From the IMG/VR virus record IMGVR_UViG_2690316152_000014: a DNA stretch of 14,138 bases; one strand, written 5' to 3'. Each line of letters begins with the position of its first letter. Within the stretch, counting starts at the first letter, position 1. The notes under the pieces were generated by a model that saw only the letters and a list, made by a program, of their open reading frames with translations, was not told the origin of the DNA and searched no databases. This DNA is from a virus (taxonomy: Duplodnaviria > Heunggongvirae > Uroviricota > Caudoviricetes). A program made the translations under genes and the position numbers. Of the stretch, positions 2,930 to 14,138 are shown piece by piece.

Positions 2930-3925
2930 TTACGCGGCCTCTAAGGGGCTTAAATCAAGTTCTAGGTCTTCCGGTTCCAACTCGGCTAATGGCATTGAGT
3001 GCATCATAGCGAAATCACGTTCTATATCATCTTCGGTTATGTAGTCTTCTGGGTTGATTTCGAAATCAGCATCAAAATATATTGGTTCGGGCGAATTGTT
3101 ATAAATGTACTCCTGTATGAATTTTTTCACATCATCCATTTTGCTGATTGGTAAAGTTTCAGTATAACCACGAGACATTAATTTACGACTAATCCGCTTA
3201 CCTTTGATGTGTTTTTTGATGCCACTTTCTAAATCACCAGCTTTCCAGCCGCAATCAAACGTGTGTGAATATTCAAGGGATAATATTTCATCGGTGTATC
3301 TTTGAGTTTCATACATTCGACGTAGTGGATTTTTGCGCGTAGTTATACCAAATTTTAAAAATTTTTCTCCTACACGAAAAACATAAAAAATAACTGGTCG
3401 ATGTGTATCTTTGTTCATCAAAGCATGTTGTTTCCCGTTTGAAAGAGCAGTTATAGCGCCACGTATAAGAGGACAAGTTAAACTCCCCCGATTACGACTA
3501 CTAAACAAATCGGCTTTGTTGTATATTTTACCATGACAATTACATTTTAGTTTTAGATGGGTTGTTATTCCTCTGTATGGTTCGGCTAGCCCTAAAACAT
3601 CCCAGCCAATCTTATTAAAGAAATTGGTTGAAACTTGTATGTACTCATGTTCTGTATACATGCAAGGTTTCTTATATGTTGGGTGATGGTCTTTTCCTGT
3701 AAACTTACCCATTAAGACACGTTGTAATAAAGGAGTTTTAACTTTATCGCCAACTTTTATATAAACTTTTGTTCGCTGGAATGGCTTATGGATAGGTAGA
3801 ACGAATCCCCCATAAATCCATCCATTAGATTTACATTGGTCAACAACCATTGATTCATATTCAGATGGGCTTTTAGCCGTTGATTTTTTGATGAAAGGAA
3901 TATCTTTAGCAAAAACGGTTTTCAT
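2930..3925 (-). CDS. Cys-rich GIY-YIG-like (T5orf172-like) putative homing endonuclease, paralog A
   Basis: ATG at 3925 with GAGGA RBS. Segment VIFYVFRVGEKFLKFGITT resembles a GIY-x(10)-YIG signature. Cys/His clusters upstream (LKLKCNCHG, LTCPL). Acidic C-terminal tail. Clearly paralogous to the 5053-6090 protein (shared WIYGGFVLP/LIYHGFVMP, KFGIT/KYGIT, GYTET). Confidence 0.55.
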   Translation of the reverse strand: MKTVFAKDIPFIKKSTAKSPSEYESMVVDQCKSNGWIYGGFVLPIHKPFQRTKVYIKVGDKVKTPLLQRVLMGKFTGKDHHPTYKKPCMYTEHEYIQVSTNFFNKIGWDVLGLAEPYRGITTHLKLKCNCHGKIYNKADLFSSRNRGSLTCPLIRGAITALSNGKQHALMNKDTHRPVIFYVFRVGEKFLKFGITTRKNPLRRMYETQRYTDEILSLEYSHTFDCGWKAGDLESGIKKHIKGKRISRKLMSRGYTETLPISKMDDVKKFIQEYIYNNSPEPIYFDADFEINPEDYITEDDIERDFAMMHSMPLAELEPEDLELDLSPLEAA

Positions 3926-3996
3926 AATAGCGAATCCTCATAAATTAAATTCACTATTATTTATTAGTATTTTTCTTGATAATAAAGATTGTTATT

Positions 3997-4668
3997 ATGT
4001 GTGATATTAAAATTAGCTTCATCAATTATAGCCATGTGAAAATTGATTATTCTCCTTCCATTGCAATGGAATTGAGAGATTATTTTAGCTTTGAAGTGGA
4101 AGGAGCCAGATTTAGTCCCAGATACAAATATTCGGGCTGGGATGGTCGTATTAGACTTTTTACCTATGAAAATTTGATGCCTATTGGCTTAGTTCGAATG
4201 GTTAGCGTGTTTTCAAAAAATATGGGTTATAGTGTTTTGATAGACCCTAGACTTTTGGAGCGGGAAAATGTCGATGAAAAGGAAATCGAAAAATGGTGCA
4301 ATGTCCTAGAATTATATTCTGGTGCTAACAGAGTTACCCCGCACTGGTATCAATCAAAAGCAGTCTTTGAAGGTATTCATCATAAACGTAGAATGTTAGT
4401 TCTTCCTACGTCCGCTGGCAAATCTGCTATCGCTTGTATGTTATCTCGTTGGTACTTAGAGAACTACGAAGGCAAAGTGTTGATCATTGTCCCGACGACC
4501 TCGCTTGTTCTCCAGATGCGGGATGATTTTGTTGATTATCGCCAGTTTCCTTATGAAGCTATTCATACTATCATGAGCGGTACTAGTAAGCATGTAGGGG
4601 ATCGCCTGATTGTTGTCAGTACATGGCAATCCGCTTGTAAACAGCCTCGTGAATGGTTTAAACAATAA
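3997..4668 (+). CDS. uvsW: UvsW-like SF2 DNA helicase, N-terminal fragment (223 aa), stops just before motif II; likely a gene remnant
   Basis: Collinear with the T4 UvsW N-terminus as recalled from memory: N-terminal domain, PHWYQ, Walker A LPTSAGKS, YLENYEGKVLIIVPTT, and WQS..KQPREWF. The ORF stops immediately before the expected DECH box. Start set to ATG 3997 (the track's 3976 is TTG). Confidence 0.7.
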   Translation: MCDIKISFINYSHVKIDYSPSIAMELRDYFSFEVEGARFSPRYKYSGWDGRIRLFTYENLMPIGLVRMVSVFSKNMGYSVLIDPRLLERENVDEKEIEKWCNVLELYSGANRVTPHWYQSKAVFEGIHHKRRMLVLPTSAGKSAIACMLSRWYLENYEGKVLIIVPTTSLVLQMRDDFVDYRQFPYEAIHTIMSGTSKHVGDRLIVVSTWQSACKQPREWFKQ

Positions 4669-4697: not shown

Positions 4698-5051
4698 TTA
4701 TCCATACCAGCGGGATTTAGTGGAACGGCTATCAATATGGGTAAAGGTTTTATATTTGCCTAAGCCATATTGATTAGGATATTTGCTATCTAGATACGCG
4801 TGAACAATATCAGGCGAGACACCTTTCACTACAATATCTGCGGCCTTGCCCGTGATATGAATCGAACGAGAAGCACCACCAACTTTCTTATTGTGTGCCG
4901 GACAACGGTTAGCACTGTTAATAACTACTGGTTTCCCGAAGTGTTCGCGTACATCCTCAAGAATTGCCAGTAATTCCGCGTCTACGGTATCTTGTCCGCA
5001 CTTTCCACATTTGCATTCAAATTCCTTGCGAGAAAAATGTTTGCTTAACAT
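4698..5051 (-). CDS. peptidase M15-family protein (zinc D-Ala-D-Ala carboxypeptidase-like); possible cell-wall hydrolase
   Basis: Motifs SANRCPAHNKKVGGASRSIH, GKAADI and FTHID fit the H...D...H zinc site of M15 peptidases. N-terminal CKCGKC cluster. Start is 1 nt after the stop of the upstream paralog-B gene, with a GGGGG SD. Confidence 0.6.
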   Translation of the reverse strand: MLSKHFSRKEFECKCGKCGQDTVDAELLAILEDVREHFGKPVVINSANRCPAHNKKVGGASRSIHITGKAADIVVKGVSPDIVHAYLDSKYPNQYGLGKYKTFTHIDSRSTKSRWYG

Positions 5052-5052
5052 A

Positions 5053-6090
5053 TTACCCCCTATATGTAATTTTATAGTTGTTGGAGTTTTTACAAAAATC
5101 CATTGCCATTTTTCTAATCTGCGCTTCTTTGGTTATGTCACATGTTTCTGTATATCCGTCTGGGATTAGTTCTTTTGGTGCAGCGTGACTTCCTATGTTA
5201 TGTTTTACGGAATATTCTAGGTCATTGGCAACTTTTCCGTCACCGAAAGTTATATACCACAATAACTTGTGAGATAATCCTGACTCTCTTGATTGTTGTG
5301 TGATTCTCTTTTGTGGGTTTAGGTGATTTGTTATTCCATATTTGATATAATCGCCTACTTGCTGGACATAGAAAACACCTGGTTTACTTTTGTTATACCC
5401 ACTCTTAGAACAGCACGGACAACCATCGTTTTCGTAAACCAAACCATACGCAACAATAGTATCTGATATATGGCCTTTTTCACACTTTAGTTTTAGTTTT
5501 GACATAGCCAAAATTGGGGATTTAGGTCGTTTTATTAATTTGAGTCTCTTTTCTTTGCACCCGTCTTCAATTAATCCCAACCATTCGTCGTCTGTGTGCT
5601 TTCTCTTATTAATTCCTCTCTTAATTGACCCACAATGACGGCACCCAGCATCATTGTTTATGATTCTTGTGATTATCGTTTCGTATGTGGTGTTACAACA
5701 AGTGCATTTATATGATGCCTTTGTATCAAGCCCTTTATATTCTTCCAACAAACCAACTAAAACCATCTCTTTACGTTCTAATACATTGCTTGCTTTGGTG
5801 AGAATGGTTTCTTCGTCTCTATTATTTTTCTTTGGTAGTTTTAAAGAATCTCTATAACATTCAATACAAGCACCTTGTTTCTTAAGGGATTTGAATACTA
5901 TCGTTCTTGATGTGTTGTGTTTTTTGCAAGTTACATAAACGTGTGTATATTGACCTTTCCACGGCATGACGAAGCCATGATAAATCAAACCTAATTCACC
6001 ACATCGTTTAATTGCAATTGTTTCATAGTCGTGCGGAGTTTTTCTTTTGAATCCGGTGTAATCGATATATTCAGCAAATAAAACTTCCAT
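5053..6090 (-). CDS. Cys-rich GIY-YIG-like (T5orf172-like) putative homing endonuclease, paralog B
   Basis: Three Cys-rich modules (KRCG..VTCKKH..CIEC; KCTCC..GCRHCG; LKCEKGH..GCPCC), then GVFYVQQVGDYIKYGIT (GIY-YIG-like) and DGYTET. GGGGGA SD upstream of ATG 6090. Confidence 0.55.
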   Translation of the reverse strand: MEVLFAEYIDYTGFKRKTPHDYETIAIKRCGELGLIYHGFVMPWKGQYTHVYVTCKKHNTSRTIVFKSLKKQGACIECYRDSLKLPKKNNRDEETILTKASNVLERKEMVLVGLLEEYKGLDTKASYKCTCCNTTYETIITRIINNDAGCRHCGSIKRGINKRKHTDDEWLGLIEDGCKEKRLKLIKRPKSPILAMSKLKLKCEKGHISDTIVAYGLVYENDGCPCCSKSGYNKSKPGVFYVQQVGDYIKYGITNHLNPQKRITQQSRESGLSHKLLWYITFGDGKVANDLEYSVKHNIGSHAAPKELIPDGYTETCDITKEAQIRKMAMDFCKNSNNYKITYRG

Positions 6091-6142: not shown

Positions 6143-6490
6143 TTAAATGTATTGTAGAAGATACCCGGTAAAGCGGAGTCCCTTGATATAGTAGTTAGTA
6201 GTGCCTAGACATACCGCTCGTGTATCGCCAATACAATTGAAGTTGTAAGGATTAACTACATCAATCTCCTGCCCTACACGAAAGCGATACTTAGGACGTT
6301 TAGCGAGTGTCGCAACACAAAACACTAGCCCGTTACCATCATCGCGGATCATCTGCTTGAATTGTTTATGTTGGACTCTCTTCGCCTCAAAATCATAGGT
6401 CATTGATTCAGGGCTAATGCCATTGATAAAAATACCGGAAAGCTGATCGACCGGATAAGTAGGAAATTCAGTGAAAATATTTTTAGCCAT
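6143..6490 (-). CDS. hypothetical protein (115 aa)
   Basis: ORF with a GGGGG SD 7 nt upstream of ATG 6490. Last gene before the terminator. No motif recognised. Confidence 0.55.
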   Translation of the reverse strand: MAKNIFTEFPTYPVDQLSGIFINGISPESMTYDFEAKRVQHKQFKQMIRDDGNGLVFCVATLAKRPKYRFRVGQEIDVVNPYNFNCIGDTRAVCLGTTNYYIKGLRFTGYLLQYI

Positions 6491-6529
6491 GTTATACCCC
6501 CCATAAGTTTCTATGAGGGTATTTATGGA

Positions 6530-7213
6530 TTAAACGTATTTCATGCGTGATTTAATGTGCTTATTGATATGTTCAAGCATCATTACTTCGTTGCTTTCCC
6601 ACGATCCTAGCGTCGAATAACGAGTAGAAATTTTATCCGACTTAACGGCAACAATTCGCTTACTCTGTTTCTGTGTGCGTTTCTCTAAGCGACGTTTTGC
6701 CACCGCCGATCCATTCTTAGCGCGTTTGGTTCGGGATTTCTTAGGCTTGTACTTCTTCATGATAAAAGTCCCTTCCTGGTTCTCTACCTTGATGAAGTTG
6801 CCGTTTTCGATGTTACGCATCATCTTACCGCCTTTGATGGCCTTAATGTTCCCGTGAGAGTCTAAGACCTTACCGTTAGCGATTGGCACTAGCTTATTGA
6901 TTTTGCCACCATCGAAATAGTGTTTCAGATAGTCGTCCTGACTGCCGATCTTCTTGTCCTTATCCCTTGCTCCCTTGATGAAGATTTGGTGTCTGGTCCC
7001 TGATCGGTTCTTGTAGTTGGTATTGCCTACCGCTTGCTGAGTCCATCGAGTAGGTCTATCAACATTCTTGTTAATCTTCTTCTGGAGTGCTCTGGAAGCA
7101 AAGATCGCCCCTTCCCCTATCGCCTTTTCGAATGTATCGGTTGCCTTATCAGTCCATTGGCGTAACGCTTTCTTAGTCCTTAGAGCGTTTCGTTTATTGG
7201 TACTGATTGACAT
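6530..7213 (-). CDS. hypothetical highly basic protein (227 aa, Lys/Arg-rich)
   Basis: GGGGGG SD. Start is 1 nt after the stop of the 56-aa ORF. Long K/R-rich stretches (KKYKPKKSRTKRAKN, KRRLEKRTQKQSKR) suggest nucleic-acid binding or a virion-internal role. Confidence 0.6.
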   Translation of the reverse strand: MSISTNKRNALRTKKALRQWTDKATDTFEKAIGEGAIFASRALQKKINKNVDRPTRWTQQAVGNTNYKNRSGTRHQIFIKGARDKDKKIGSQDDYLKHYFDGGKINKLVPIANGKVLDSHGNIKAIKGGKMMRNIENGNFIKVENQEGTFIMKKYKPKKSRTKRAKNGSAVAKRRLEKRTQKQSKRIVAVKSDKISTRYSTLGSWESNEVMMLEHINKHIKSRMKYV

Positions 7214-7214
7214 A

Positions 7215-7385
7215 TTACCCCCCTAATAACGAAAAGACCCCCGCTAGTGTCCTGAGTAATTGTTCATCCACGGTCATAGCCGGGAGTTCAAGCCCAAAGG
7301 ACGTAAGCAGAGGTCTAATAGCTACGTTATAAGTGAGGGCGATAATCAAGAGATAACCAAAATATTTCTTAAGTCTATTCTTCAT
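7215..7385 (-). CDS. small membrane protein (56 aa, MKNRLKKYFGYLLIIALTYNVAIRPLLTSFGLELPAMTVDEQLLRTLAGVFSLLGG), not in the ORF track
   Basis: ATG at 7385 preceded by GGGGTG at about 6 nt. Hydrophobic helix YFGYLLIIALTY. Ends GGG-GGG-TAA, and that stop is coupled to the start of the 227-aa gene. Confidence 0.4.
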   Translation of the reverse strand: MKNRLKKYFGYLLIIALTYNVAIRPLLTSFGLELPAMTVDEQLLRTLAGVFSLLGG

Positions 7386-7405: not shown

Positions 7406-7684
7406 TTATTTTTGTTTGAGTATGTCGAGAACTTGGTCAAATTTAGCATCCATCGCAACCACTTTTTTCTCTATGCCGTGTAGTGTTTGTTCCATTTGGT
7501 AAACACGTTCAGCAATCTGAGTATGGTTGTTCTGCATCGTCTCAAACTTCTGGTTTAACAATGCGTCGCTGGATTCCAATTTAGATAACCTATTTTCAGT
7601 TGCTATTTGATTTCGGTGAAGTCTCCAAAGACCACCACAAATTAAGGCGATAACACCGATACCGCCATATATAATTTCAGTCAT
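7406..7684 (-). CDS. membrane-anchored coiled-coil protein (92 aa); function unknown
   Basis: N-terminal helix IIYGGIGVIALICGGLW, then heptad-like sequence rich in Q/E/K/L. GGGGGCG SD 4 nt upstream of ATG 7684. Confidence 0.55.
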   Translation of the reverse strand: MTEIIYGGIGVIALICGGLWRLHRNQIATENRLSKLESSDALLNQKFETMQNNHTQIAERVYQMEQTLHGIEKKVVAMDAKFDQVLDILKQK

Positions 7685-7787: not shown

Positions 7788-10700
7788 TTAACGAATAGAA
7801 ATACCAGAAGTGGCTTTTTTAGCGACCATCACAACAACATCGGTCGCACTACCCGATCTACGGGTTGAAACAGGCCATGCTTTAAACTCTAAAGTCACGC
7901 TACCCTTACCCGCTGGCATGTCTATAACGCTACTGTATGCAATAGGTATTGGTCCGCCTGATTCTAATGCTTTCAGTAAAGTACCATTTTTACGCACTTC
8001 TAAACGCATACGGCTATACCCGGTTCTGCCCGGATTATCACCAGTTCCTGCAATATCGTATTCAGCGCCAGCAACAATAATTGGCGGAATGATGATTTGA
8101 CGGTCAAATTTATGGTCATCATTGATCGTTACGGTAACAGCACCATCAGGAACACCAGCATCACCTAAAGTAGCAGCACCACGAGGAAACGCCTTAGATA
8201 CAGTCTTAACAAAATCACCGCGTACCTGAGTAGCTTCTAACATACCCTTAATAACACAGGATTCGTTAATCGTGACGTTGTTCAGAGTACCGGAATCAGC
8301 CGTGATATTACCTTTGATTTTGGCATTCATGAACGTAGCGGACCCGTTCTTGTTGATATGCCATCCGGTAGATCCGTTCCAGTTGGAAGACTGGATATAG
8401 TTACCGATTTTAGCGTTATCAATTGCACCGTTTACAATCTTGGCGTTAGTGATCGCCCCGTCCTGAATCTTCGCGCTATTAATTGCAGCATTGCCGATTT
8501 TAGCCGTGGTGATTGCCGCATCAGTAATCTGGGCTGTGCCGATTGAGGCATTACGGATCATGGACCAGTCCATATACACCTTGTTTCCTTCGACACCAAA
8601 CGGAACAACACCCGCCGCGCCATCCTGTGGAGCTACCACCAGCTTATCAGCCGTAAAGATGATTTTAGTCGGTTGTGCCGGATCGTTAGTTGCGCTCATG
8701 TGAATACCAGCCACACGACCATCTGCATTAACTGCAAGATTGTATTTGCTGTTAATGGTTCCCTTCAAAGCATCGATCTTAACGTCCGCTTCTTGGTTAA
8801 CACCAGCAATCTTGCCATCCATTTCTACCCGAACTTGATCAATCTTACTTGCGCTTGCTGCCTCACTGGTTGCAATTGCTTGTTTCAGGGTAGTAGCAGA
8901 TGCGCTAACTTCTTTGGTGATATCACCTTTCAATTCAGCTTTAACCTGATCAATCTTAGTGGAGCTAGCTTGATCACCAGAGACAATCAGACTCTTAAGA
9001 GTATCGGCTGAGGCTTGGACCGTCTGTCCTGTTTCAGTAGTGATTTGCTTGTGCATTGCATCAATTTTAGCATCGGCATTTTCGCCAGCTTGAGCAATAG
9101 CATCAGCGATAGTTTCATCTAAGCGATCTTGTAAACCAATCAGGTCTTCCAGTGCTTCTTTGTCCTGATCTTCCCAACTAATCGAAGATTTCATAGACAT
9201 GAAATACGGTTCAGACCAGACAGCATCATCCATGCCGAAAATATCGTAGTGAGCACCACGGATATAATAATCACCATCAGCCAAATCAAAGGAAGTATGG
9301 CTAACACTATTCGTGCTTACTGCCCTTGCATCGGAGAAAGTGTTATCGGTTGCATACTGGATGATTGACCCTGCATAGTCATGTTCTACGTCATCTGTCC
9401 AGCTAACAAACGCAGTATTAAAGCCACCACGCGCACTAAAACCTTTCATCGGCTTATGCTGTGGGTTGATAGCCACTAAACGCGCTGGGGCGCTCTCTGA
9501 GTTGTTATATCCTTTAACCGATACTTCCACCGTCAGTTGACGCGAAAGGCCGTTAAACTGGTTCATATCAAGCGTATAAGTCCATGATTCAGGATCGCGG
9601 GTACGGTACTGAATAGACTTACCAGCCTTGTTAGTAACCTTGATAATGTATGCTTCAAACAGGTCACTAAACTTGTTAGCTTCGCCGTTGATCATCACAT
9701 CTAAGCCTTGCTGGTTATCCCATTCGATAATCAGATCATTACCTTCGAAAGTGCCAGCCGTGCTACCCTGATTTTTGATTCGAATAGTCGGAGTCGGCAA
9801 TTCATAGGTAACAGTAGGATTCTGGTTAATCAGTTCTACCCAATCGGATCGCGCGATGATACCGAAAGCACAAATACGGTAATCGTAAGAACGATCTTTA
9901 GCCAGTGCATTGACATTGAAGATTTGCTGTGAAGTCTGACCCAGCTTAATCCAGTTAGGTGATCCGCTTACACGATAATCAATCTGGAAACCATAACGGT
10001 TAAAATCTTCCGGTGCATCCCATGTCAAAGTAACGTTTTTACCGTAAATCGTCTCGCCAGTTGCCTTAATTCTGAAATTAGTAGGCTTCTGTACTGTCAT
10101 TGAATCCGGTAAACCACTTGGTCTATTGTCTGGAGTTGCCGCATAGTTCAGGTCAGTATAAACCTGAGAATTATATTCTGTAGCGGTGATAGTCATCATC
10201 CCAGCAATACCAGAATCAATCGAGCGATCAATTGCGGTAATACGCCATAAAGAATTATTCAGTTTTAATTCATCATAGGTTACGCTAATAACATCCCATA
10301 CTTCGGCAGTGAATGCGTCAGTAGTCATAAAGCTGATAACCTGAGTGATACGAGATTTATTTCGTTCAATGCTCGCTAGTTTATCAATCTGGTCTTTAGA
10401 CTTAACGAAACGATATTCTACATCCTTAGCAATAATTCGACCATCTGCGCGAACAGTAGCATCGTTTTCAGCATCAGCCGGATAACGTAGCATTTGCTCC
10501 GAATAGTCGATTGATGGTTCTTGATATACCGCGTTAATGGTATTGAAATAACCGTTAGTACCACCAGTTTTAAGGGATACTTTACCCATCATAATATTGT
10601 CTTCATTGAAGGTATGCTTAACAATATCAGGAGCATCCAGTTTCAGAGTAATTCTTCCGAAGGATTCGAACATTACCCCGCCGAAAGTCTGCATTAATCC

Positions 10701-11567
10701 GGTTAAGTTCTCTTTAAAGCTGGCGTTCGGATCACATGCACCGTTTGAATGTAGATCCATCTGGCGTACTTGTTTACGCACTTTCAGGAATGAATCAACG
10801 TTAATGTTTTCAATTGGTACACTAAGACCATATTTTGTATTTGTCAGATAATGGAAAATCTGATCCACGCCGTTAGTGCTTGCCTCAATAGCATTGGTTT
10901 CAAGGTTACGGATTTTAAGGCCGCAAACGTCTACTGTTACCTGGCTATTCGTTTGCAGAATATCAACACCAGCAGCCAGAGATTTGTCATCACGGCGTAA
11001 AACAATACACATGGTCGCAATACCGTTACCCTTGTAAGCATCGGTCCAGTCTGAGCCTAAATGATGTTTAGCCAGTGACAATGCGGTGTTAGGATTCTTA
11101 CCCGTGCGAAACTCAACTTCTAAAACTTTGCGGTATTCGTCTTTAATGTTGCCCTTATCGAGTACACCATCACGGATCGTCATGTTCTTACCGACCAACA
11201 CATTTTTATTATCGATAAAGAGTGCTTTGTAATGGTCGATTTCACCCTCTGCAACAGAAAAGATTTGCACTAACTTATTGTTTTCTTTCTTAGAAATAGC
11301 TTTGTAAACGCAGTTTGTGCCAGTACGGGTAACACCAAAAAGAACGGGTACTACTGTTTTTGGATCGGTTGATGTTCCTAGTGTCACCGCATTATCTGGG
11401 CTTTGTACTTTAGGCGTTTTTGGCGTAGCAGCTACGGAAGCAATCAAGGTCATTGCACCAGCAGCCATACCGATAGCAACTGCGGTCATAACAGAGAATG
11501 TTGCAGCAGCAGCCATCCCAGCAGATGCACCCGCAATAACCGCACCTACTAATACTTCAATTCCCAT
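7788..11567 (-). CDS. lambda J-like central tail fiber / host specificity protein (1259 aa) with an N-terminal extension resembling the C-terminus of tail assembly protein I
   Basis: Size and position after the K-like gene. C-terminal ~200 aa match my recollection of the lambda J receptor-binding region (SGTLNNVTINE, DDHKFDRQIIIP, VIDMPAGKG, VVVMVAKKATSGISI). N-terminal Gly/Ala-rich hydrophobic segment and VVPVLFG motif resemble the gpI C-terminus. ATG at 11567 overlaps the upstream stop (TAATG). Confidence 0.85.
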   Translation of the reverse strand: MGIEVLVGAVIAGASAGMAAAATFSVMTAVAIGMAAGAMTLIASVAATPKTPKVQSPDNAVTLGTSTDPKTVVPVLFGVTRTGTNCVYKAISKKENNKLVQIFSVAEGEIDHYKALFIDNKNVLVGKNMTIRDGVLDKGNIKDEYRKVLEVEFRTGKNPNTALSLAKHHLGSDWTDAYKGNGIATMCIVLRRDDKSLAAGVDILQTNSQVTVDVCGLKIRNLETNAIEASTNGVDQIFHYLTNTKYGLSVPIENINVDSFLKVRKQVRQMDLHSNGACDPNASFKENLTGLMQTFGGVMFESFGRITLKLDAPDIVKHTFNEDNIMMGKVSLKTGGTNGYFNTINAVYQEPSIDYSEQMLRYPADAENDATVRADGRIIAKDVEYRFVKSKDQIDKLASIERNKSRITQVISFMTTDAFTAEVWDVISVTYDELKLNNSLWRITAIDRSIDSGIAGMMTITATEYNSQVYTDLNYAATPDNRPSGLPDSMTVQKPTNFRIKATGETIYGKNVTLTWDAPEDFNRYGFQIDYRVSGSPNWIKLGQTSQQIFNVNALAKDRSYDYRICAFGIIARSDWVELINQNPTVTYELPTPTIRIKNQGSTAGTFEGNDLIIEWDNQQGLDVMINGEANKFSDLFEAYIIKVTNKAGKSIQYRTRDPESWTYTLDMNQFNGLSRQLTVEVSVKGYNNSESAPARLVAINPQHKPMKGFSARGGFNTAFVSWTDDVEHDYAGSIIQYATDNTFSDARAVSTNSVSHTSFDLADGDYYIRGAHYDIFGMDDAVWSEPYFMSMKSSISWEDQDKEALEDLIGLQDRLDETIADAIAQAGENADAKIDAMHKQITTETGQTVQASADTLKSLIVSGDQASSTKIDQVKAELKGDITKEVSASATTLKQAIATSEAASASKIDQVRVEMDGKIAGVNQEADVKIDALKGTINSKYNLAVNADGRVAGIHMSATNDPAQPTKIIFTADKLVVAPQDGAAGVVPFGVEGNKVYMDWSMIRNASIGTAQITDAAITTAKIGNAAINSAKIQDGAITNAKIVNGAIDNAKIGNYIQSSNWNGSTGWHINKNGSATFMNAKIKGNITADSGTLNNVTINESCVIKGMLEATQVRGDFVKTVSKAFPRGAATLGDAGVPDGAVTVTINDDHKFDRQIIIPPIIVAGAEYDIAGTGDNPGRTGYSRMRLEVRKNGTLLKALESGGPIPIAYSSVIDMPAGKGSVTLEFKAWPVSTRRSGSATDVVVMVAKKATSGISIR
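8395..8545 (-). repeat. in-frame tandem short repeats inside the J-like gene, encoding (D/N)(A/G)AI(T/N)x-AKI(G/Q/V) units
   Basis: Protein segment TAQITDAAITTAKIGNAAINSAKIQDGAITNAKIVNGAIDNAKIGN. Matching DNA repeats of GCCGATTTTAGC / CGCGAAGATTCAGGA type were read by eye; coordinates are approximate. Confidence 0.45.
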
Positions 11568-11986
11568 TATTCACCCCCGAATCTATAAACTTGTTCATAG
11601 TCAATGTCTGAAACAGGAACGGTCATCCAGATACCATCTTCGGTAATAAGGCCATAACCGGAATAATGAGGAACTACGGAATAATAATTGCGGTTTCCTA
11701 ACTTGTGAGCGGTAACTAATAAGTCGCCGTCCTGTAAATCATCAGTGACTAATTTGAAATGCTTCTTAATTGGTTGAAGGATGTTTGTATATCCGCTTAA
11801 TTCTTTGCAGACTTTCAAGCCTTCTTCTTTCGTAGAATATTTTTTATAAAGAGAATCATGCAGGTCAGTACCAGCGAGAATATCGATGATCTTACATGCA
11901 ATTAAATTGCAATCATTCTCACCTTGAACGAACTCCTGACCTACTAATGAATTGATATAATCGGTGATAAGCCTAGTTTTTAGCAT
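11567..11986 (-). CDS. tail assembly protein K-like, NlpC/P60-type domain only (139 aa)
   Basis: GENDCNLIACKI resembles the catalytic-Cys motif of NlpC/P60 and of the gpK C-terminal domain; a His lies downstream (PHYSG). No JAMM/MPN HxH motif. Start chosen at ATG 11986 with GGAGG 8 nt upstream; the track's longer ORF (start 12142) overlaps the preceding gene by about 110 nt. Confidence 0.6.
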   Translation of the reverse strand: MLKTRLITDYINSLVGQEFVQGENDCNLIACKIIDILAGTDLHDSLYKKYSTKEEGLKVCKELSGYTNILQPIKKHFKLVTDDLQDGDLLVTAHKLGNRNYYSVVPHYSGYGLITEDGIWMTVPVSDIDYEQVYRFGGE

Positions 11987-12032
11987 GTTGAATACCTCCA
12001 TGCAGTTATTTACTAGGCTTAGGGAGAAGGGA

Positions 12033-12686
12033 TTATTTTTTAGAAGAATGCCACTTGCTTTCTGAGTTCCACTTCCCGGCACGAGAGAAGAATAGATCGT
12101 TCTCGTTTCCAACATAGGATCGGTGGATACCATCGGAAGCATGACTACGGGCGTTTTTATCTAGAACTTCCCAGATACTATTAAGCTGAAATTCTGATTC
12201 GTTTTTACACTCATCATCTTCATGTTCGATGTTAATCCCGATGGAATCGACTACCCCACGGAAAACAGGGTAAGTAGTTTCAACCTTGCCCGTGTTAGGG
12301 TTCAGGAACACCATTTCGATTTTTACATCAGATTTATCGAATTGCTTGTTTCGAATCAGGGTGATGTATTCCTCGCGAACGTTAGAAACGGTTACGTTAA
12401 TCCCGTTGTTGTTGATCTCCTTCTCTTCGGTATTCGATGAGATTTGAAGAAAATCACCCGTTGCGAGATATGTAAAACCGTTGTAGTCCAAATCGAAATA
12501 CCCATCAGTAAGCCGTAGAACGTCCCCTGACGCGGTGACTGCTTCGATAATGTAAAACATCGATCCAGTGGAGAAAAGCTGTGGTAACGTCAATTTAGAC
12601 ACGTTCTGACCTGTCTGGTCGTTGTAGACCTCGATGAAGTCCAGATTAGTGCATAGTTTGCTGAATGATTCCTGAATAGTTGCCAT
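12033..12686 (-). CDS. minor tail protein (gpL position; 217 aa)
   Basis: Synteny between the upstream minor tail protein and the K-like gene. Start ATG 12686 overlaps the upstream stop (TAATG), with GGAG upstream. Unlike lambda gpL there is no C-terminal Cys cluster, so the assignment is positional. Confidence 0.5.
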   Translation of the reverse strand: MATIQESFSKLCTNLDFIEVYNDQTGQNVSKLTLPQLFSTGSMFYIIEAVTASGDVLRLTDGYFDLDYNGFTYLATGDFLQISSNTEEKEINNNGINVTVSNVREEYITLIRNKQFDKSDVKIEMVFLNPNTGKVETTYPVFRGVVDSIGINIEHEDDECKNESEFQLNSIWEVLDKNARSHASDGIHRSYVGNENDLFFSRAGKWNSESKWHSSKK

Positions 12687-13246
12687 TATACATTCTCCAC
12701 TAATTCGAATTTCATCTTGCCAATCTGGGCGATCTTCCAATCGATTTCTTCGGTTTTGAGAAGAAATTCACCCTCAACGTTCTGATACTTGACTACCTCA
12801 CCCGCTAGAACATGCTGACGCAAGTTAGGAAAGAGTTTCATTTCACCACCTGATTTCACGTCTTCGGTGATCGTGTAGATTTTCTTGTGGTTCTCAAACT
12901 GTACAATCGTTCCCGCTTTCAGTGTTCCGGTGAAGTTGGAGAGTCTTACCTTACGCCCACCACGGTCAGTACGAGCAGCAGCCGTAACCATCTGGCGTAC
13001 ATCACCTGTATATTTTGAAAAGTAAGATAGTGGCACACTGAAAGGACGACCAAAAAGGTGACGTGCTACAAATTCTTTTACTTCGTTAATATCCTGAGCC
13101 ATGAAATTAGCTGTAAATTCTGCTTCATAAAAATGAATGCCAGTAAAGCGACGCTGGAACTTACCAGAAATAGATTGCGCCTTGAAGAAAGGCTGTTTTG
13201 ATTTAAGAGTAAAATCTGTGATTTTAATATTCTTGGATTTGAACAT
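12686..13246 (-). CDS. minor/distal tail protein (gpM or Dit position; 186 aa)
   Basis: First gene after the tape-measure-like ORF. Its GGGGG SD lies inside the 3' arm of a 12-bp hairpin. Assignment is positional only. Confidence 0.5.
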   Translation of the reverse strand: MFKSKNIKITDFTLKSKQPFFKAQSISGKFQRRFTGIHFYEAEFTANFMAQDINEVKEFVARHLFGRPFSVPLSYFSKYTGDVRQMVTAAARTDRGGRKVRLSNFTGTLKAGTIVQFENHKKIYTITEDVKSGGEMKLFPNLRQHVLAGEVVKYQNVEGEFLLKTEEIDWKIAQIGKMKFELVENV

Positions 13247-13296: not shown

Positions 13297-14018
13297 TTAC
13301 ATCTTACGACGCTGGACGTCTTCTACATGCTGCGCAACTAATTTAGCATGACGTTTGATAGCATCCATGACCATCTTGTCTGAGCTATTAACGTTGCCGT
13401 TAATGTTCAAAGGCGCATTAACTTCAATCGGCTGAGAGTTGCCGCCTGATTTTTGAGCAGATAAGAAGTCTTTCAAATCACCGTTAGTACGCTGATCAAC
13501 TACTCGTTCACCCTTATCAAGCAACCATGTACCCTCACGCGGGATGTTATCGATACCATCATGCGCCATACCACTAACGTTAGTAGACTTGATGTTAGCA
13601 ATGCTTCCCATGTTCTGAGCAACAGCCAAAGCACTAGCGGCGATCTTCTGTCCTGTGGTTACGTTGGTCGGATCGTTCCATGCATCGGTGGCAGCCGTCC
13701 ACATGTTCACCGTCGCTTGCCCGATAGAGAATGCTTTATGAGCATTAAAAGCCATTTGCATAGCTTTAGTGTTTTCCTGCCCGAAAAGAGTCATTGCAGC
13801 AGAAAAACCACTGTACATATCATCGGCTATTGACTGGCGAGCATCAGCATATTTCTTCTCAATTGCAGCCATCCGTTTTTGATGGTTTTCGTTGAGTTTT
13901 TCTAATGCAGCCATCCGTTTAGCCGGATCATTAATACCATCGATCTTAAGACTTTCGGTCTTATAGTCTTGTTCAGCTTCCGATTTCTCTTTATCGATTG
14001 CATTAAATTTAGCAAACG
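13297..14018 (-). pseudogene. tail tape-measure-like protein, C-terminal fragment; 5' part cut off by an IS insertion
   Basis: The frame stays open upstream of Met 13914 to the IS junction at 14018/14019 and meets a stop only inside the IS (TAG at 14044-14046 on the minus strand). Ala-rich, helical composition and the position upstream of the M/L/K/J-type genes suggest a tape measure protein by synteny. Confidence 0.5.
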
Positions 14019-14138
14019 TGAACCGCCCCGGGAATCCTGGAGACTAAACTCCCTGAGAAAGAGGTAAACAGGATGACTAAAAATACACGTTTTTCCCCCG
14101 AGGTCCGTCAACGGGCAGTTCGTATGGTTCTGGAAAGT
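14019..14138 (+). mobile_element. IS3-family insertion sequence (IS629/IS1203/IS3411-like), left end; continues past the window
   Basis: Starts with TG: TGAACCGCCCCGGGAATCCTGGAGACTAAACTCCCTGAGAAAGAGGTAAACAGG, then an ATG encoding MTKNTRFSPEVRQRAVRMVLES. I recognise this as the IS629-group left inverted repeat and OrfA N-terminus. Confidence 0.8.
14073..14138 (+). CDS. IS3-family transposase OrfA, N-terminal 22 codons (partial)
   Basis: ATG at 14073 preceded by GAGG. Translation MTKNTRFSPEVRQRAVRMVLES is typical of the helix-turn-helix OrfA N-terminus of IS3-family elements. Confidence 0.8.
   Translation, partial: MTKNTRFSPEVRQRAVRMVLES

What the first reader, a model, noticed from the sequence alone, without database searches (positions are those of the whole stretch)
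7788..12142. J-like protein carries an I-like N-terminus; no separate I gene; K-like protein lacks the JAMM half
Lambda-type tail tips encode K (JAMM plus NlpC/P60), I, and J as separate genes. Here the K-like protein is only 139 aa with an NlpC/P60-like motif (ENDCNL). There is no gene between K-like and J. J begins with a Gly/Ala-rich hydrophobic segment and a VVPVLFG motif that I associate with the gpI C-terminus. The J C-terminus resembles the lambda J receptor-binding region, which raises (without proving) the possibility of a LamB-type receptor.
Basis: partly seen in the sequence, partly recalled or inferred. Interest (0 to 1): 0.55.

Follow-up and report, generated by a model that had tools for sequence, protein, structure and literature searches.

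The report
Tail-tip protein with built-in gpI plug

Summary
The minus-strand ORF 7788-11567 (1259 aa) opens with two Gly/Ala-rich hydrophobic helices and a VVPVLFG strand. This stretch is homologous to the C-terminal half of lambda gpI (hhalign 96%, E 2.8e-9). A profile built without any gpI sequence still finds gpI in the PDB (E 9e-5).

This is a family trait. All 52 closer J relatives in IMG/VR (45-96% identity), and most at about 22-25%, share the layout. The order (distal tail protein, hub, NlpC/P60, large protein with N-terminal hydrophobic helices) matches RcGTA and roseophage R4C. The hub core is closest to T5 pb3. Iyer et al. (2006) had already noted I-J fusions and K proteins lacking JAB.

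The lambda-like receptor domain (41% identity) is a swappable cassette, so a LamB receptor cannot be inferred.

Verdict: real, correctly read, a new member of a known kind.

The parts
7788..11567 (-). J-like central tail fibre / hub protein, 1259 aa, one continuous ORF
   Evidence: The identical protein is on 11 public contigs. Homologues of 1226-1419 aa with the same layout occur in IMG/VR.
11274..11567 (-). gpI-C-like insertion/plug module, J aa 1-98
   Evidence: The I-C profile hits aa 1-99 at E 1e-32 and nothing else in six frames. BLASTP to gpI 155-218 gives E 8e-7. hhalign gives E 2.8e-9. It aligns colinearly with gpI 106-213.
11430..11561 (-). Two Gly/Ala-rich hydrophobic helices, J aa 3-46, aligned with gpI helices H1/H2
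   Evidence: Hydropathy 1.35-1.95 over 19-residue windows. Alignment A1. In lambda these helices are predicted to be transmembrane and disappear from the map after LamB binding (PMC11101478).
11334..11354 (-). VVPVLFG motif, J aa 72-78, equal to gpI VLPVLYG and T5 pb3 IPVVYG (aa 264-269)
   Evidence: Y/F77 and G78 are nearly invariant or invariant in 24 diverse J N-termini. The T5 pb3 alignment starts at this motif.
10128..11273 (-). Hub domains, J aa ~99-480 (approximate bounds), homologous to T5 pb3 262-696 and lambda gpJ 265-484
   Evidence: Family profile against the PDB: 7zhj_b E 1.4e-53, 8iyk_J E 1.1e-19. Pfam Phage-tail_3 scores 20.2 bits, just below its cut-off of 23.
9168..10100 (-). 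Fibronectin-III-like region, J aa ~490-800 (approximate bounds)
   Evidence: Pfam fn3 is weak at aa 508-569. Close homologues are named 'fibronectin type III domain-containing protein' by NCBI.
8481..8777 (-). Phage_Tail_Tip (PF09327) fibre segment, J aa 931-1029
   Evidence: 64.3 bits against a cut-off of 22.
7794..8366 (-). Lambda-J-like distal fibre plus receptor-binding Ig domain, J aa 1068-1258 (Ig_GpJ_C = 7794-8201). The last ~139 aa form a swappable cassette.
   Evidence: Megablast matches to 53 E. coli genomes stop at query nt 418. Cassette identity to sister prophages is 39-46%.
11567..11986 (-). K-position gene: 139-aa DUF6950 protein with an NlpC/P60 fold and no JAB/MPN domain. Predicted triad C26, H107, E116.
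12033..12686 (-). L-position hub protein, 217 aa (ATG at 12686 overlapping the stop of the gene before it). Only 2 Cys, so no 4-Cys Fe-S site.
   Evidence: phrog_2048 'tail protein' E 1.8e-27. Pfam Phage_phiJL001_Gp84_N (formerly DUF2163) scores 24.2 bits, just below its cut-off of 26. RefSeq names it a DUF2163 protein in some genomes. Cys count read directly from the sequence.
12686..13246 (-). Distal tail protein (M position), 186 aa
   Evidence: phrog_1302 'distal tail protein' E 1.9e-16. Weak Pfam hit to DTP-pb9_B-dom.
13297..14018 (-). C-terminal part of the tape measure protein, cut by the contig end
   Evidence: TMP PHROGs at E 1e-35. The intact 809-aa gene is present in L003. Window 14019-14138 does not match L003.

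Best explanation
This is the tail-tip module of a roughly 35-kb siphovirus prophage of E. coli. The order is tape measure, distal tail protein, L-like hub protein, small NlpC/P60-fold protein, then a 1259-aa hub-plus-central-fibre protein.

The first ~98 residues of the large protein are homologous to the C-terminal half of lambda gpI. They comprise two hydrophobic helices, a short plug/linker and beta-strands carrying the PV(L/V)(Y/F)G motif. They run straight into the segment homologous to the N-terminus of lambda J and to T5 pb3 from residue 262.

Inferred mechanism, by homology with the solved lambda, T5 and RcGTA/R4C tail tips:
- Three copies of this N-terminal module sit in the lumen of the trimeric hub.
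- There they close the channel and support the C-terminus of the tape measure protein.
- When the C-terminal Ig-like domain binds an outer-membrane receptor, the hub opens.
- The hydrophobic helices are released and insert into the outer membrane ahead of tape measure and DNA.

Because the module is translated as the native N-terminus of J, it needs neither the ubiquitin-like carrier domain of gpI nor the JAB peptidase half of gpK. Both are absent here and in every fused relative examined.

The remaining NlpC/P60-fold protein has its Cys-His-Glu positions intact in this phage. It is most likely an assembly factor, a tail-borne peptidoglycan peptidase like RcGTA g14, or both.

Shown here: the homologies, gene structure, domain content and family-wide conservation. 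Inferred: position in the virion, plug and membrane-insertion roles, and enzymatic activity.
For: Homology of J aa 1-98 to gpI 106-213:
- BLASTP E 8e-7.
- hhalign Prob 96%, E 2.8e-9.
- Colinear alignment including both hydrophobic helices.
- J-only profiles hit 8iyk_I at E 9.3e-5 and 2e-4.

Continuity into the hub:
- T5 pb3 262-696 at E 1.4e-53, with the alignment starting at the shared IPVVYG motif.
- Lambda gpJ 265-484 at E 1.1e-19.
- R4C megatron residues 1-209 match colinearly from residue 1 at E 0.0015. RcGTA g15 1-180 matches at E 0.86, which is weak.

Family trait:
- 52 of 52 closer IMG/VR loci (45-96% J identity) carry the I-C module at J residues 1-~100, with a K-like gene (131-144 aa at its predicted start) immediately upstream.
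- So do most loci at about 22-25% identity.
- Zero hits for the gpI Ubl HMM, lambda K or a JAMM motif in those loci or in six frames of the window, L003 and the whole PI7 prophage.

The converse also holds:
- 37 of 56 standalone I-C proteins carry Pfam Lambda_tail_I, the Ubl domain.
- One carries Prok-JAB fused directly to I-C.

Structural roles of gpI 101-223, the pb3 plug and the megatron iris/penetration helices come from PMC11101478, PMC10721106, PMC7296036 and PMC10276861.
Against: - No structure supports the placement of the N-terminal module. The AF2 monomer of J 1-560 was unusable (pLDDT 40).
- The sequence link to the RcGTA megatron itself is weak (E 0.86). The link to R4C is modest (E 0.0015).
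- The canonical catalytic His of the K-like protein is not conserved. It is H/Y within the close clade and V/I/F in the 46-50% clade. Catalysis may therefore not be its essential role.
- K-like shows no significant sequence similarity to gpK or to any PDB chain.
- Cleavage of lambda gpI at its GG motif by gpK has not been demonstrated in the papers read here.
Confidence: 0.78

Rival explanations
1. The resemblance to gpI is only compositional. On this view, a generic hydrophobic N-terminal membrane anchor or signal-like segment plus a short chance motif is present, not a homologous module.
For: The first 47 residues are low-complexity Gly/Ala/Val/Ile sequence, which aligns easily with any similar segment. 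Whole-protein phmmer against the PDB gave only E 0.1 for gpI. Pfam and NCBIfam report nothing for aa 1-130.
Against: The significant alignments lie in the non-hydrophobic part (J 45-102 and 48-96): BLASTP E 8e-7 and hhalign E 2.8e-9. Profiles containing no gpI sequence recover gpI, and a second gpI homologue from F2-pyocin, in a PDB-wide search. Pfam is silent because its Lambda_tail_I model covers only gpI residues 14-97. The order helix, helix, P-K-x-P, (S/T)xD, PVxYG, R-x-G is colinear.
Confidence: 0.04
2. The fusion is an artefact. On this view, a sequencing or assembly error, or a recent frameshift or deletion in a decaying prophage, joined a separate I gene to J and truncated K.
For: The window comes from a draft contig whose far end is junk. 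A sister prophage has a frameshifted terminase. Iyer et al. suggested that NlpC-only K versions might be degenerate prophage variants (PMC1779556).
Against: The same single ORF and the same 131-144-aa K-like gene recur in more than 50 independent IMG/VR loci spanning 22-96% identity. They also recur in cultured lytic or virion-forming phages: Escherichia phage DCP80, Vibrio phage henriette 12B8 and Pseudomonas phage Lebethron. The junctions show tidy translational coupling. Five separate 50%-identity clusters of 1192-1351-aa proteins begin with the module.
Confidence: 0.02
3. The N-terminal module is homologous to gpI-C, but its main role here is assembly rather than plugging the channel or entering the membrane. 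It would nucleate the J trimer or dock the tape measure. The DUF6950 protein would be a non-catalytic chaperone for this step.
For: Lambda I and K were defined genetically as tail-assembly genes. gpK is not found in virions (PMC10721106). Deleting RcGTA g14 abolishes tail formation (PMC7296036). The canonical His of DUF6950 is lost in sister clades while Cys26 is kept.
Against: Cryo-EM shows gpI 101-223 in mature lambda tails, plugging the lumen, with its helices vanishing after receptor binding (PMC11101478). The equivalent megatron helices form the iris in RcGTA and R4C. A covalently attached N-terminus necessarily stays in the virion unless it is cleaved. The two roles are not exclusive.
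Confidence: 0.15

Closest known systems
Lambda gpI (tail tip assembly protein I, 'TAPI'), C-terminal half, PDB 8IYK/8XCG chain I
   Same: Two hydrophobic helices, a plug/linker and beta-strands with the PVLYG motif. The match is colinear with detectable sequence homology. The module sits immediately next to the J hub domains, in gene order for lambda and in the polypeptide here.
   Different: Here there is no ubiquitin-like N-domain (gpI 14-97, Pfam PF06805) and no separate gene. The module is the native N-terminus of J. J Met1 aligns to gpI L106, six residues after the Gly-Gly (G99-G100) that ends the Ubl domain.
RcGTA g12-g15 and roseophage R4C tail tip (distal tail protein, hub, NlpC/P60 peptidase g14, 'megatron' with N-terminal iris/penetration domain)
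   Same: Identical gene order and division of labour. A small (~140-150 aa) NlpC/P60-only protein is present without JAB. There is no gpI gene. The large protein starts with hydrophobic helices. The family profile matches R4C megatron 1-209 from residue 1 (E 0.0015).
   Different: Sequence similarity is marginal (RcGTA g15 E 0.86). The K-position protein here is DUF6950, and no NCBIfam model matched it at E<=1. The hub protein here lacks the four Fe-S cysteines. The distal part is a lambda-like central fibre with an Ig receptor domain, not a megatron fibre-binding domain.
T5 baseplate hub protein pb3 (PDB 7ZHJ)
   Same: Best solved-structure match for the hub core (E 1.4e-53 over pb3 262-696). 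It shares the IPVVYG...AEGEI motif block. pb3 also carries its channel plug in the same chain as the hub domains.
   Different: pb3 additionally contains the L-equivalent domain (HDI) in one chain, and its plug is an internal insertion. Here L is a separate gene and the plug module is N-terminal with gpI-type hydrophobic helices.
Lambda gpK (JAB/MPN + NlpC/P60)
   Same: Same gene position (between L and I/J) and the same NlpC/P60 papain-like fold with the catalytic Cys at the start of a helix.
   Different: No JAB/MPN half and no JAMM motif. Sequence similarity to gpK is not significant (hhalign E 0.09). It belongs to Pfam DUF6950, not NLPC_P60.
Lambda gpJ (tip attachment protein J)
   Same: Hub domains are homologous (E 1.1e-19). 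Phage_Tail_Tip and Ig_GpJ_C domains are present. The last 190 aa are 41% identical.
   Different: The rest of the protein is below BLASTP detection. The NCBIfam lambda_TipJ equivalog scores 177 bits against a cut-off of 1950. The extra gpI-C module sits at the N-terminus.

Membership tests
Lambda gpI / TAPI family (full-length) | N-terminal ubiquitin-like beta-grasp domain ending in a conserved Gly (Pfam PF06805 Lambda_tail_I) | tested here: not met
   No PF06805 hit in J or any other window ORF. An Ubl HMM built from gpI homologues finds nothing in six frames of the window, L003 and the PI7 prophage.
Lambda gpI / TAPI family (full-length) | C-terminal 'TAPI-C' module: two hydrophobic helices, plug, PVxYG beta-strand | tested here: met
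   The I-C profile scores E 1e-32 on J aa 1-99. J-only profiles hit 8iyk_I.
Lambda gpI / TAPI family (full-length) | Separate gene between K and J | tested here: not met
   The K-like stop overlaps the J start. The ORF is continuous.
Lambda gpK family | JAB/MPN metalloprotease domain with JAMM motif (H-x-H-x7-S-x2-D) | tested here: not met
   Only DUF6950 is found in the 139-aa protein, whereas lambda K hits Prok-JAB. No JAMM motif in any frame.
Lambda gpK family | NlpC/P60 papain-like domain with a catalytic Cys-His pair | tested here: met
Lambda gpK family | Detectable sequence homology to gpK | tested here: not met
   hhalign Prob 0.6%, E 0.09. phmmer with lambda K finds nothing in the window.
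Pfam DUF6950 (PF22262) | Score above the Pfam gathering threshold | tested here: met
   47.1 bits against a cut-off of 27. The nearest BFVD structures are DUF6950 proteins.
Lambda gpJ / tip attachment protein J | Hub domains HDII-HDIV | tested here: met
   Family profile against 8iyk_J 265-484 gives E 1.1e-19. Pfam Phage-tail_3 is only 20.2 bits, below its cut-off of 23.
Lambda gpJ / tip attachment protein J | Central fibre with Phage_Tail_Tip and a C-terminal Ig receptor-binding domain | tested here: met
   PF09327 scores 64 bits and PF12421 scores 85 bits. 41% identity to lambda J 949-1131.
Lambda gpJ / tip attachment protein J | Full-length equivalog (NCBIfam NF049904 lambda_TipJ) | tested here: not met
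   177 bits against a cut-off of 1950. Only the last 190 aa match.
Lambda gpJ / tip attachment protein J | LamB as receptor | not testable with these tools
   The receptor cassette is 39% identical to lambda's and 39-46% identical to sister prophages. The same domain family includes an OmpC binder (PMC11101478). Adsorption assays are needed.
RcGTA/R4C-type tail tip (hub, peptidase, megatron) | Gene order: distal tail protein, hub (DUF2163-type), ~150-aa NlpC/P60 protein, large hub/fibre protein | tested here: met
   Searches compared with PMC7296036 and PMC10276861.
RcGTA/R4C-type tail tip (hub, peptidase, megatron) | N-terminal hydrophobic iris/penetration helices on the large protein | tested here: inconclusive
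   The helices are present. The profile matches R4C megatron 1-209 at E 0.0015 but RcGTA g15 only at E 0.86. No structure was obtained.
RcGTA/R4C-type tail tip (hub, peptidase, megatron) | Four-cysteine Fe-S cluster in the hub protein | tested here: not met
   The 217-aa L-position protein has only two Cys (sequence).
T5 pb3-type single-chain baseplate hub | HDI, plug and HDII-IV in one polypeptide | tested here: not met
   The core is homologous (E 1.4e-53), but the HDI-equivalent is a separate 217-aa gene.

The most novel reading that the evidence does not exclude
The fused lineages act as a natural experiment on a proposal open since Iyer et al. (2006). That proposal is that the JAB half of lambda gpK exists to cut the ubiquitin-like domain off gpI after its Gly-Gly, freeing the hydrophobic helix as a new N-terminus.

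Four observations fit this:
- Wherever the I-C module is translated as the native N-terminus of J, both the Ubl and JAB domains are absent (0 in about 80 loci).
- J Met1 aligns six residues after gpI G99-G100.
- The lambda cryo-EM model starts at residue 101.
- One representative protein has JAB fused directly to I-C.

If correct, a free N-terminal hydrophobic helix is the functional requirement. Ubl plus JAB would be a lambda-specific way to deliver it, and DUF6950 would represent the minimal K function.
Probability: 0.45. Interest if true: 0.5.

Novelty: new member of a known kind. Interest (0 to 1): 0.3.

Why it matters
The result gives a correct annotation for a prophage tail module present in about 1% of complete E. 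coli genomes. RefSeq currently labels these genes only as 'phage tail tip domain-containing protein', 'DUF6950 family protein' and 'hypothetical protein'.

It also supplies a sequence-level bridge between three solved tail tips: lambda (L, I and J separate), RcGTA/R4C (hub plus megatron) and T5 (all in pb3). That bridge supports the structure-based proposal that gpL, gpI and the gpJ N-terminus together equal pb3.

The strict co-absence of the gpI Ubl domain and the gpK JAB domain in fused lineages sharpens a testable hypothesis about gpI maturation in lambda.

It shows that Pfam has no model for the gpI C-terminal module, which is why such fusions go unannotated.

None of this overturns current understanding.

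Tried and rejected
- AF2 of J 1-560 with an 8-sequence alignment gave pLDDT 40. I did not use it for fold search.
- The search for homologous proteins with J 1-520 returned only 10 mostly fragmentary hits, because the candidate list saturated. With gpI 100-223 it returned only close lambda-like homologues.
- tblastn of J 1-110 against cultured phages found only DCP80. Megablast of the region against phages found nothing.
- Pfam and NCBIfam on J 1-130 gave nothing. The reason is that PF06805 covers only the Ubl domain.
- H94 was first considered as the catalytic His because it is invariant in the close clade. I rejected it after the wider alignment showed it is not conserved, and that H107 and E116 occupy the canonical positions.
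- A literature search for DUF6950 found no paper. The best PDB match to the receptor domain, 'A8 gpJ 713' (9wca), could not be traced to a paper or a receptor.
- I considered and rejected the compositional-similarity and artefactual-fusion explanations (see rivals).

Full report
**What is in the window.** The tail genes lie on the minus strand. Reading 5' to 3' on that strand:
- the C-terminal part of a tape measure protein (13297-14018);
- a 186-aa distal tail protein (12686-13246);
- a 217-aa L-position hub protein (12033-12686);
- a 139-aa protein (11567-11986);
- a 1259-aa J-like protein (7788-11567).

Gene callers on four public contigs carrying the identical J protein give the same gene set. 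The element is a prophage of about 35 kb. It ends in a large serine recombinase (1163-2860, +) next to host genes. Related copies at 80-92% identity occur in 57 of 5426 complete E. coli genomes. RefSeq labels the genes 'phage tail tip domain-containing protein', 'DUF6950 family protein' and 'hypothetical' or 'DUF2163'.

**Check of the observation.** Every sequence statement holds.
- The finding's upper bound (12142) is the start of the longest ORF. The real K-like start is the ATG at 11986, eight bases after GGAGG, which gives MLKTRL... and ENDCNL at aa 23-28.
- The K-like stop and the J start overlap as TAATG behind a GGGGGTG run, so there is no room for another gene.
- J aa 1-47 are Gly/Ala-rich and strongly hydrophobic. 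VVPVLFG is at aa 72-78.

**Is the J N-terminus really gpI-like?** Yes, but it matches only the C-terminal half of gpI.
- BLASTP aligns J 45-102 with lambda gpI 155-218 (E 8e-7).
- hhalign between nine J-type N-termini and nine gpI C-halves gives Prob 96%, E 2.8e-9 over the non-hydrophobic part.
- A joint MAFFT alignment is colinear through both hydrophobic helices, a P-K-x-P linker, an (S/T)-x-D turn and the PVxYG...R-x-G strand.
- As an independent test, profiles built only from 24 diverse J N-termini, with no gpI sequence, find lambda gpI chain 8iyk_I in a PDB-wide search. The E-values are 9.3e-5 and 2e-4, matching gpI 118-213. They also find the F2-pyocin gpI homologue.
- Pfam is silent because PF06805 models only gpI residues 14-97, the ubiquitin-like domain.
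- Directly after the module, J continues with ...LVQIFSVAEGEIDHYKALFIDNK. This corresponds to lambda J ...LLSVIDAISEGPIEG... (by eye) and to T5 pb3 ...VVYAFAEGEIDGF (aligned). The fusion is therefore end to end.

**No separate I gene and no JAB.** I ran four searches against all six frames of the window, a 23.8-kb locus with 10 kb more upstream, and a 44-kb stretch covering a whole sister prophage. The searches were an I-C HMM, an Ubl HMM built from gpI homologues, phmmer with lambda K, and a JAMM-motif regex. The only hits are J aa 1-99 (I-C) and the K-position gene against its own family HMM. Pfam scans of the other window ORFs show no Lambda_tail_I or Prok-JAB.

**The K-position protein.**
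- It matches Pfam DUF6950 (47 bits, cut-off 27). Lambda K, by contrast, hits NLPC_P60 and Prok-JAB.
- Sequence similarity to gpK is not significant.
- In 34 unique relatives the G-x-N-D-C motif Cys is invariant.
- The canonical His (H107 here) is His in only 14 of 34, counted across two adjacent alignment columns that may not be the same structural position.
- The third polar position (E116 here) is E/H/D/N in 27 of 34.
- This protein therefore has a complete triad. Some sister clades do not, which leaves open whether catalysis is the conserved function.

**Is this a peculiarity or a family trait?** It is a family trait.
- A scan of IMG/VR with the J N-terminal alignment returned 76 loci.
- In all 52 loci whose J is 45-96% identical, the I-C module sits at J residues 1-~100 and a DUF6950 gene (131-144 aa at its predicted start) lies immediately upstream. 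The same holds for most loci at about 22-25% identity. None has an Ubl, gpK-like or JAMM hit.
- Cultured phages show the same order: Escherichia phage DCP80, Vibrio phage henriette 12B8 and Pseudomonas phage Lebethron.
- The most distant relatives (L074-L084 and Pelagibacter phage HTVC202P) keep an N-terminal hydrophobic helix and the P-I-V-Y-G motif but have no K-position gene at all.

A mixed I-C profile searched against 1.84 billion representative proteins found 2309 clusters at E<=1e-3.
- The top 150 are mostly 190-250-aa standalone proteins with the module at about residues 90-200.
- Five are 1192-1351-aa J proteins with the module at residues 1-100.
- Of 56 standalone-type hits, 37 carry Pfam Lambda_tail_I and one carries Prok-JAB fused directly to I-C.

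**Comparison with known systems.**
- Cryo-EM of lambda shows gpI 101-223 (or 134/135-223) as a trimer inside the tip. It has two predicted transmembrane helices, a plug (159-175) and beta-strands threaded between the gpJ hub domains. It supports the tape-measure C-terminus. After LamB binding the helices disappear from the map and are proposed to enter the outer membrane (PMC11101478, PMC10721106, PMC12617516).
- Xiao et al. proposed that gpL, gpI and the gpJ N-terminus together equal T5 pb3, whose plug is internal.
- RcGTA and roseophage R4C have the same gene order as this window. Their ~150-residue NlpC/P60 peptidase (g14) is tentatively placed in the lumen. Their 'megatron' begins with hydrophobic iris/penetration helices that close the channel and are proposed to form the outer-membrane pore (PMC7296036, PMC10276861).
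- The J-family profile matches T5 pb3 262-696 (E 1.4e-53), lambda gpJ 265-484 (E 1.1e-19), R4C megatron 1-209 (E 0.0015) and RcGTA g15 1-180 (E 0.86).
- Iyer et al. (2006) already recorded that TAPI is fused to TAPJ in some prophages, that one E. coli prophage fuses TAPI to JAB, and that NlpC-only K versions exist. They also proposed that JAB releases the Ubl domain at its terminal Gly (PMC1779556).

This window is therefore the intermediate arrangement: L separate, I-C fused to J. It is an uncharacterised enterobacterial member of a known class.

**Most likely mechanism.**
- Shown: homology, gene structure, domain content and conservation.
- Inferred by homology: three N-terminal modules sit in the hub lumen as plug and tape-measure rest. 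Receptor binding by the C-terminal Ig domain opens the hub, and the helices then insert into the outer membrane. The DUF6950 protein acts in assembly, as a tail-borne peptidoglycan peptidase, or both.
- Ubl and JAB are absent together in every fused lineage.
- J Met1 aligns to gpI L106, six residues after G99-G100.
- The lambda model of Ge et al. begins at residue 101.
- Together these points fit the idea that lambda uses Ubl plus JAB to produce the same free hydrophobic N-terminus that the fused proteins have natively. This part is inference, not demonstration.

**Receptor.**
- The last 190 aa are 41% identical to lambda J. They match a PDB entry named 'A8 gpJ 713' slightly better (135 against 111 bits).
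- Sister prophages with 90-96% identical J cores have C-terminal 139-aa cassettes only 39-46% identical to this one. Lambda's is 39% identical.
- Megablast matches in E. coli genomes stop exactly at the cassette boundary.
- The domain family also includes an OmpC binder, the J of phage 434 (PMC11101478).
- A trimeric outer-membrane porin is a reasonable guess. LamB specifically cannot be inferred.

**Verdict.** The novelty class is 'new member of a known kind' and I score interest at 0.3. The most useful by-products are a clean sequence bridge between the lambda, GTA and T5 tail tips, and a sharper test of the gpI/gpK maturation hypothesis.

Noticed in passing
window 7788-8204 (J aa ~1121-1259): The receptor-binding cassette is a distinct allele. 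Prophages with 90-96% identical J cores have only 39-46% identity here. No complete E. coli genome in RefSeq has a near match to this cassette, and megablast matches stop at the boundary.
   Followed up: partly
window 5053-6090 (-), 2930-3925 (-), 3976-4668 (+): Compared with the sister prophage in E. coli PI7 (L007), this copy carries extra genes. One is a 345-aa HNH/CapR-domain endonuclease inserted between the M15 peptidase gene and the 115-aa gene. The others, between the recombinase and the M15 peptidase, are a second CapR-like 331-aa ORF and a truncated UvsW-like helicase (UvsW_N plus partial ResIII/DEAD, 230 aa). These look like homing-endonuclease-type insertions.
   Followed up: partly
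window 14019-14138: The last 120 bases do not match the intact tape measure gene of another genome carrying the same prophage (L003, 809-aa TMP). The window equals the end of draft contig CYBG01000025.1, so the TMP is cut by an assembly boundary, not by biology.
   Followed up: yes
window 12033-12686 (-): The L-position hub protein has only two cysteines. It therefore lacks the four-Cys iron-sulfur site of lambda gpL and the RcGTA/R4C hub proteins.
   Followed up: partly
P0150 (225 aa, representative-library hit): This top-scoring standalone I-C protein has a Prok-JAB domain (aa 3-92, E 4e-14) fused directly upstream of the gpI-C module (aa 106-225) instead of an Ubl domain. It matches the single JAB-TAPI fusion mentioned by Iyer et al. 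in 2006.
   Followed up: partly
L002 (Escherichia phage DCP80, PQ671644) 8499-8915: The DUF6950 K-position gene (138 aa, E 2e-19 to the family HMM) is not annotated in the GenBank record, which has a gap between the CDSs ending at 8362 and starting at 8917. The 141-kb genome is filed under Straboviridae/Tevenvirinae although this locus is a siphovirus-type tail-tip module.
   Followed up: no
L074-L084 and L010 (Pelagibacter phage HTVC202P): The most distant J relatives have no K-position gene at all (order: distal tail protein, L-like, J). They keep an N-terminal hydrophobic helix and the P-I-V-Y-G motif. An NlpC/P60 partner is therefore dispensable in some lineages.
   Followed up: partly
window 7406-7684 (-) and 6143-7385 (-): Directly after J come a 92-aa protein with an N-terminal hydrophobic segment and a coiled coil, then 56-, 227- and 115-aa proteins without family matches, then an M15 D-Ala-D-Ala carboxypeptidase-family endolysin (4698-5051). 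This may be a lysis cassette or accessory tail genes. I did not examine it further.
   Followed up: no
K-like family alignment: Across DUF6950 relatives the catalytic Cys is invariant (34/34). The canonical NlpC/P60 His is replaced by V/I/F/Y/C in whole clades, which suggests either a non-canonical active site or a conserved non-catalytic role for the Cys-bearing surface.
   Followed up: partly
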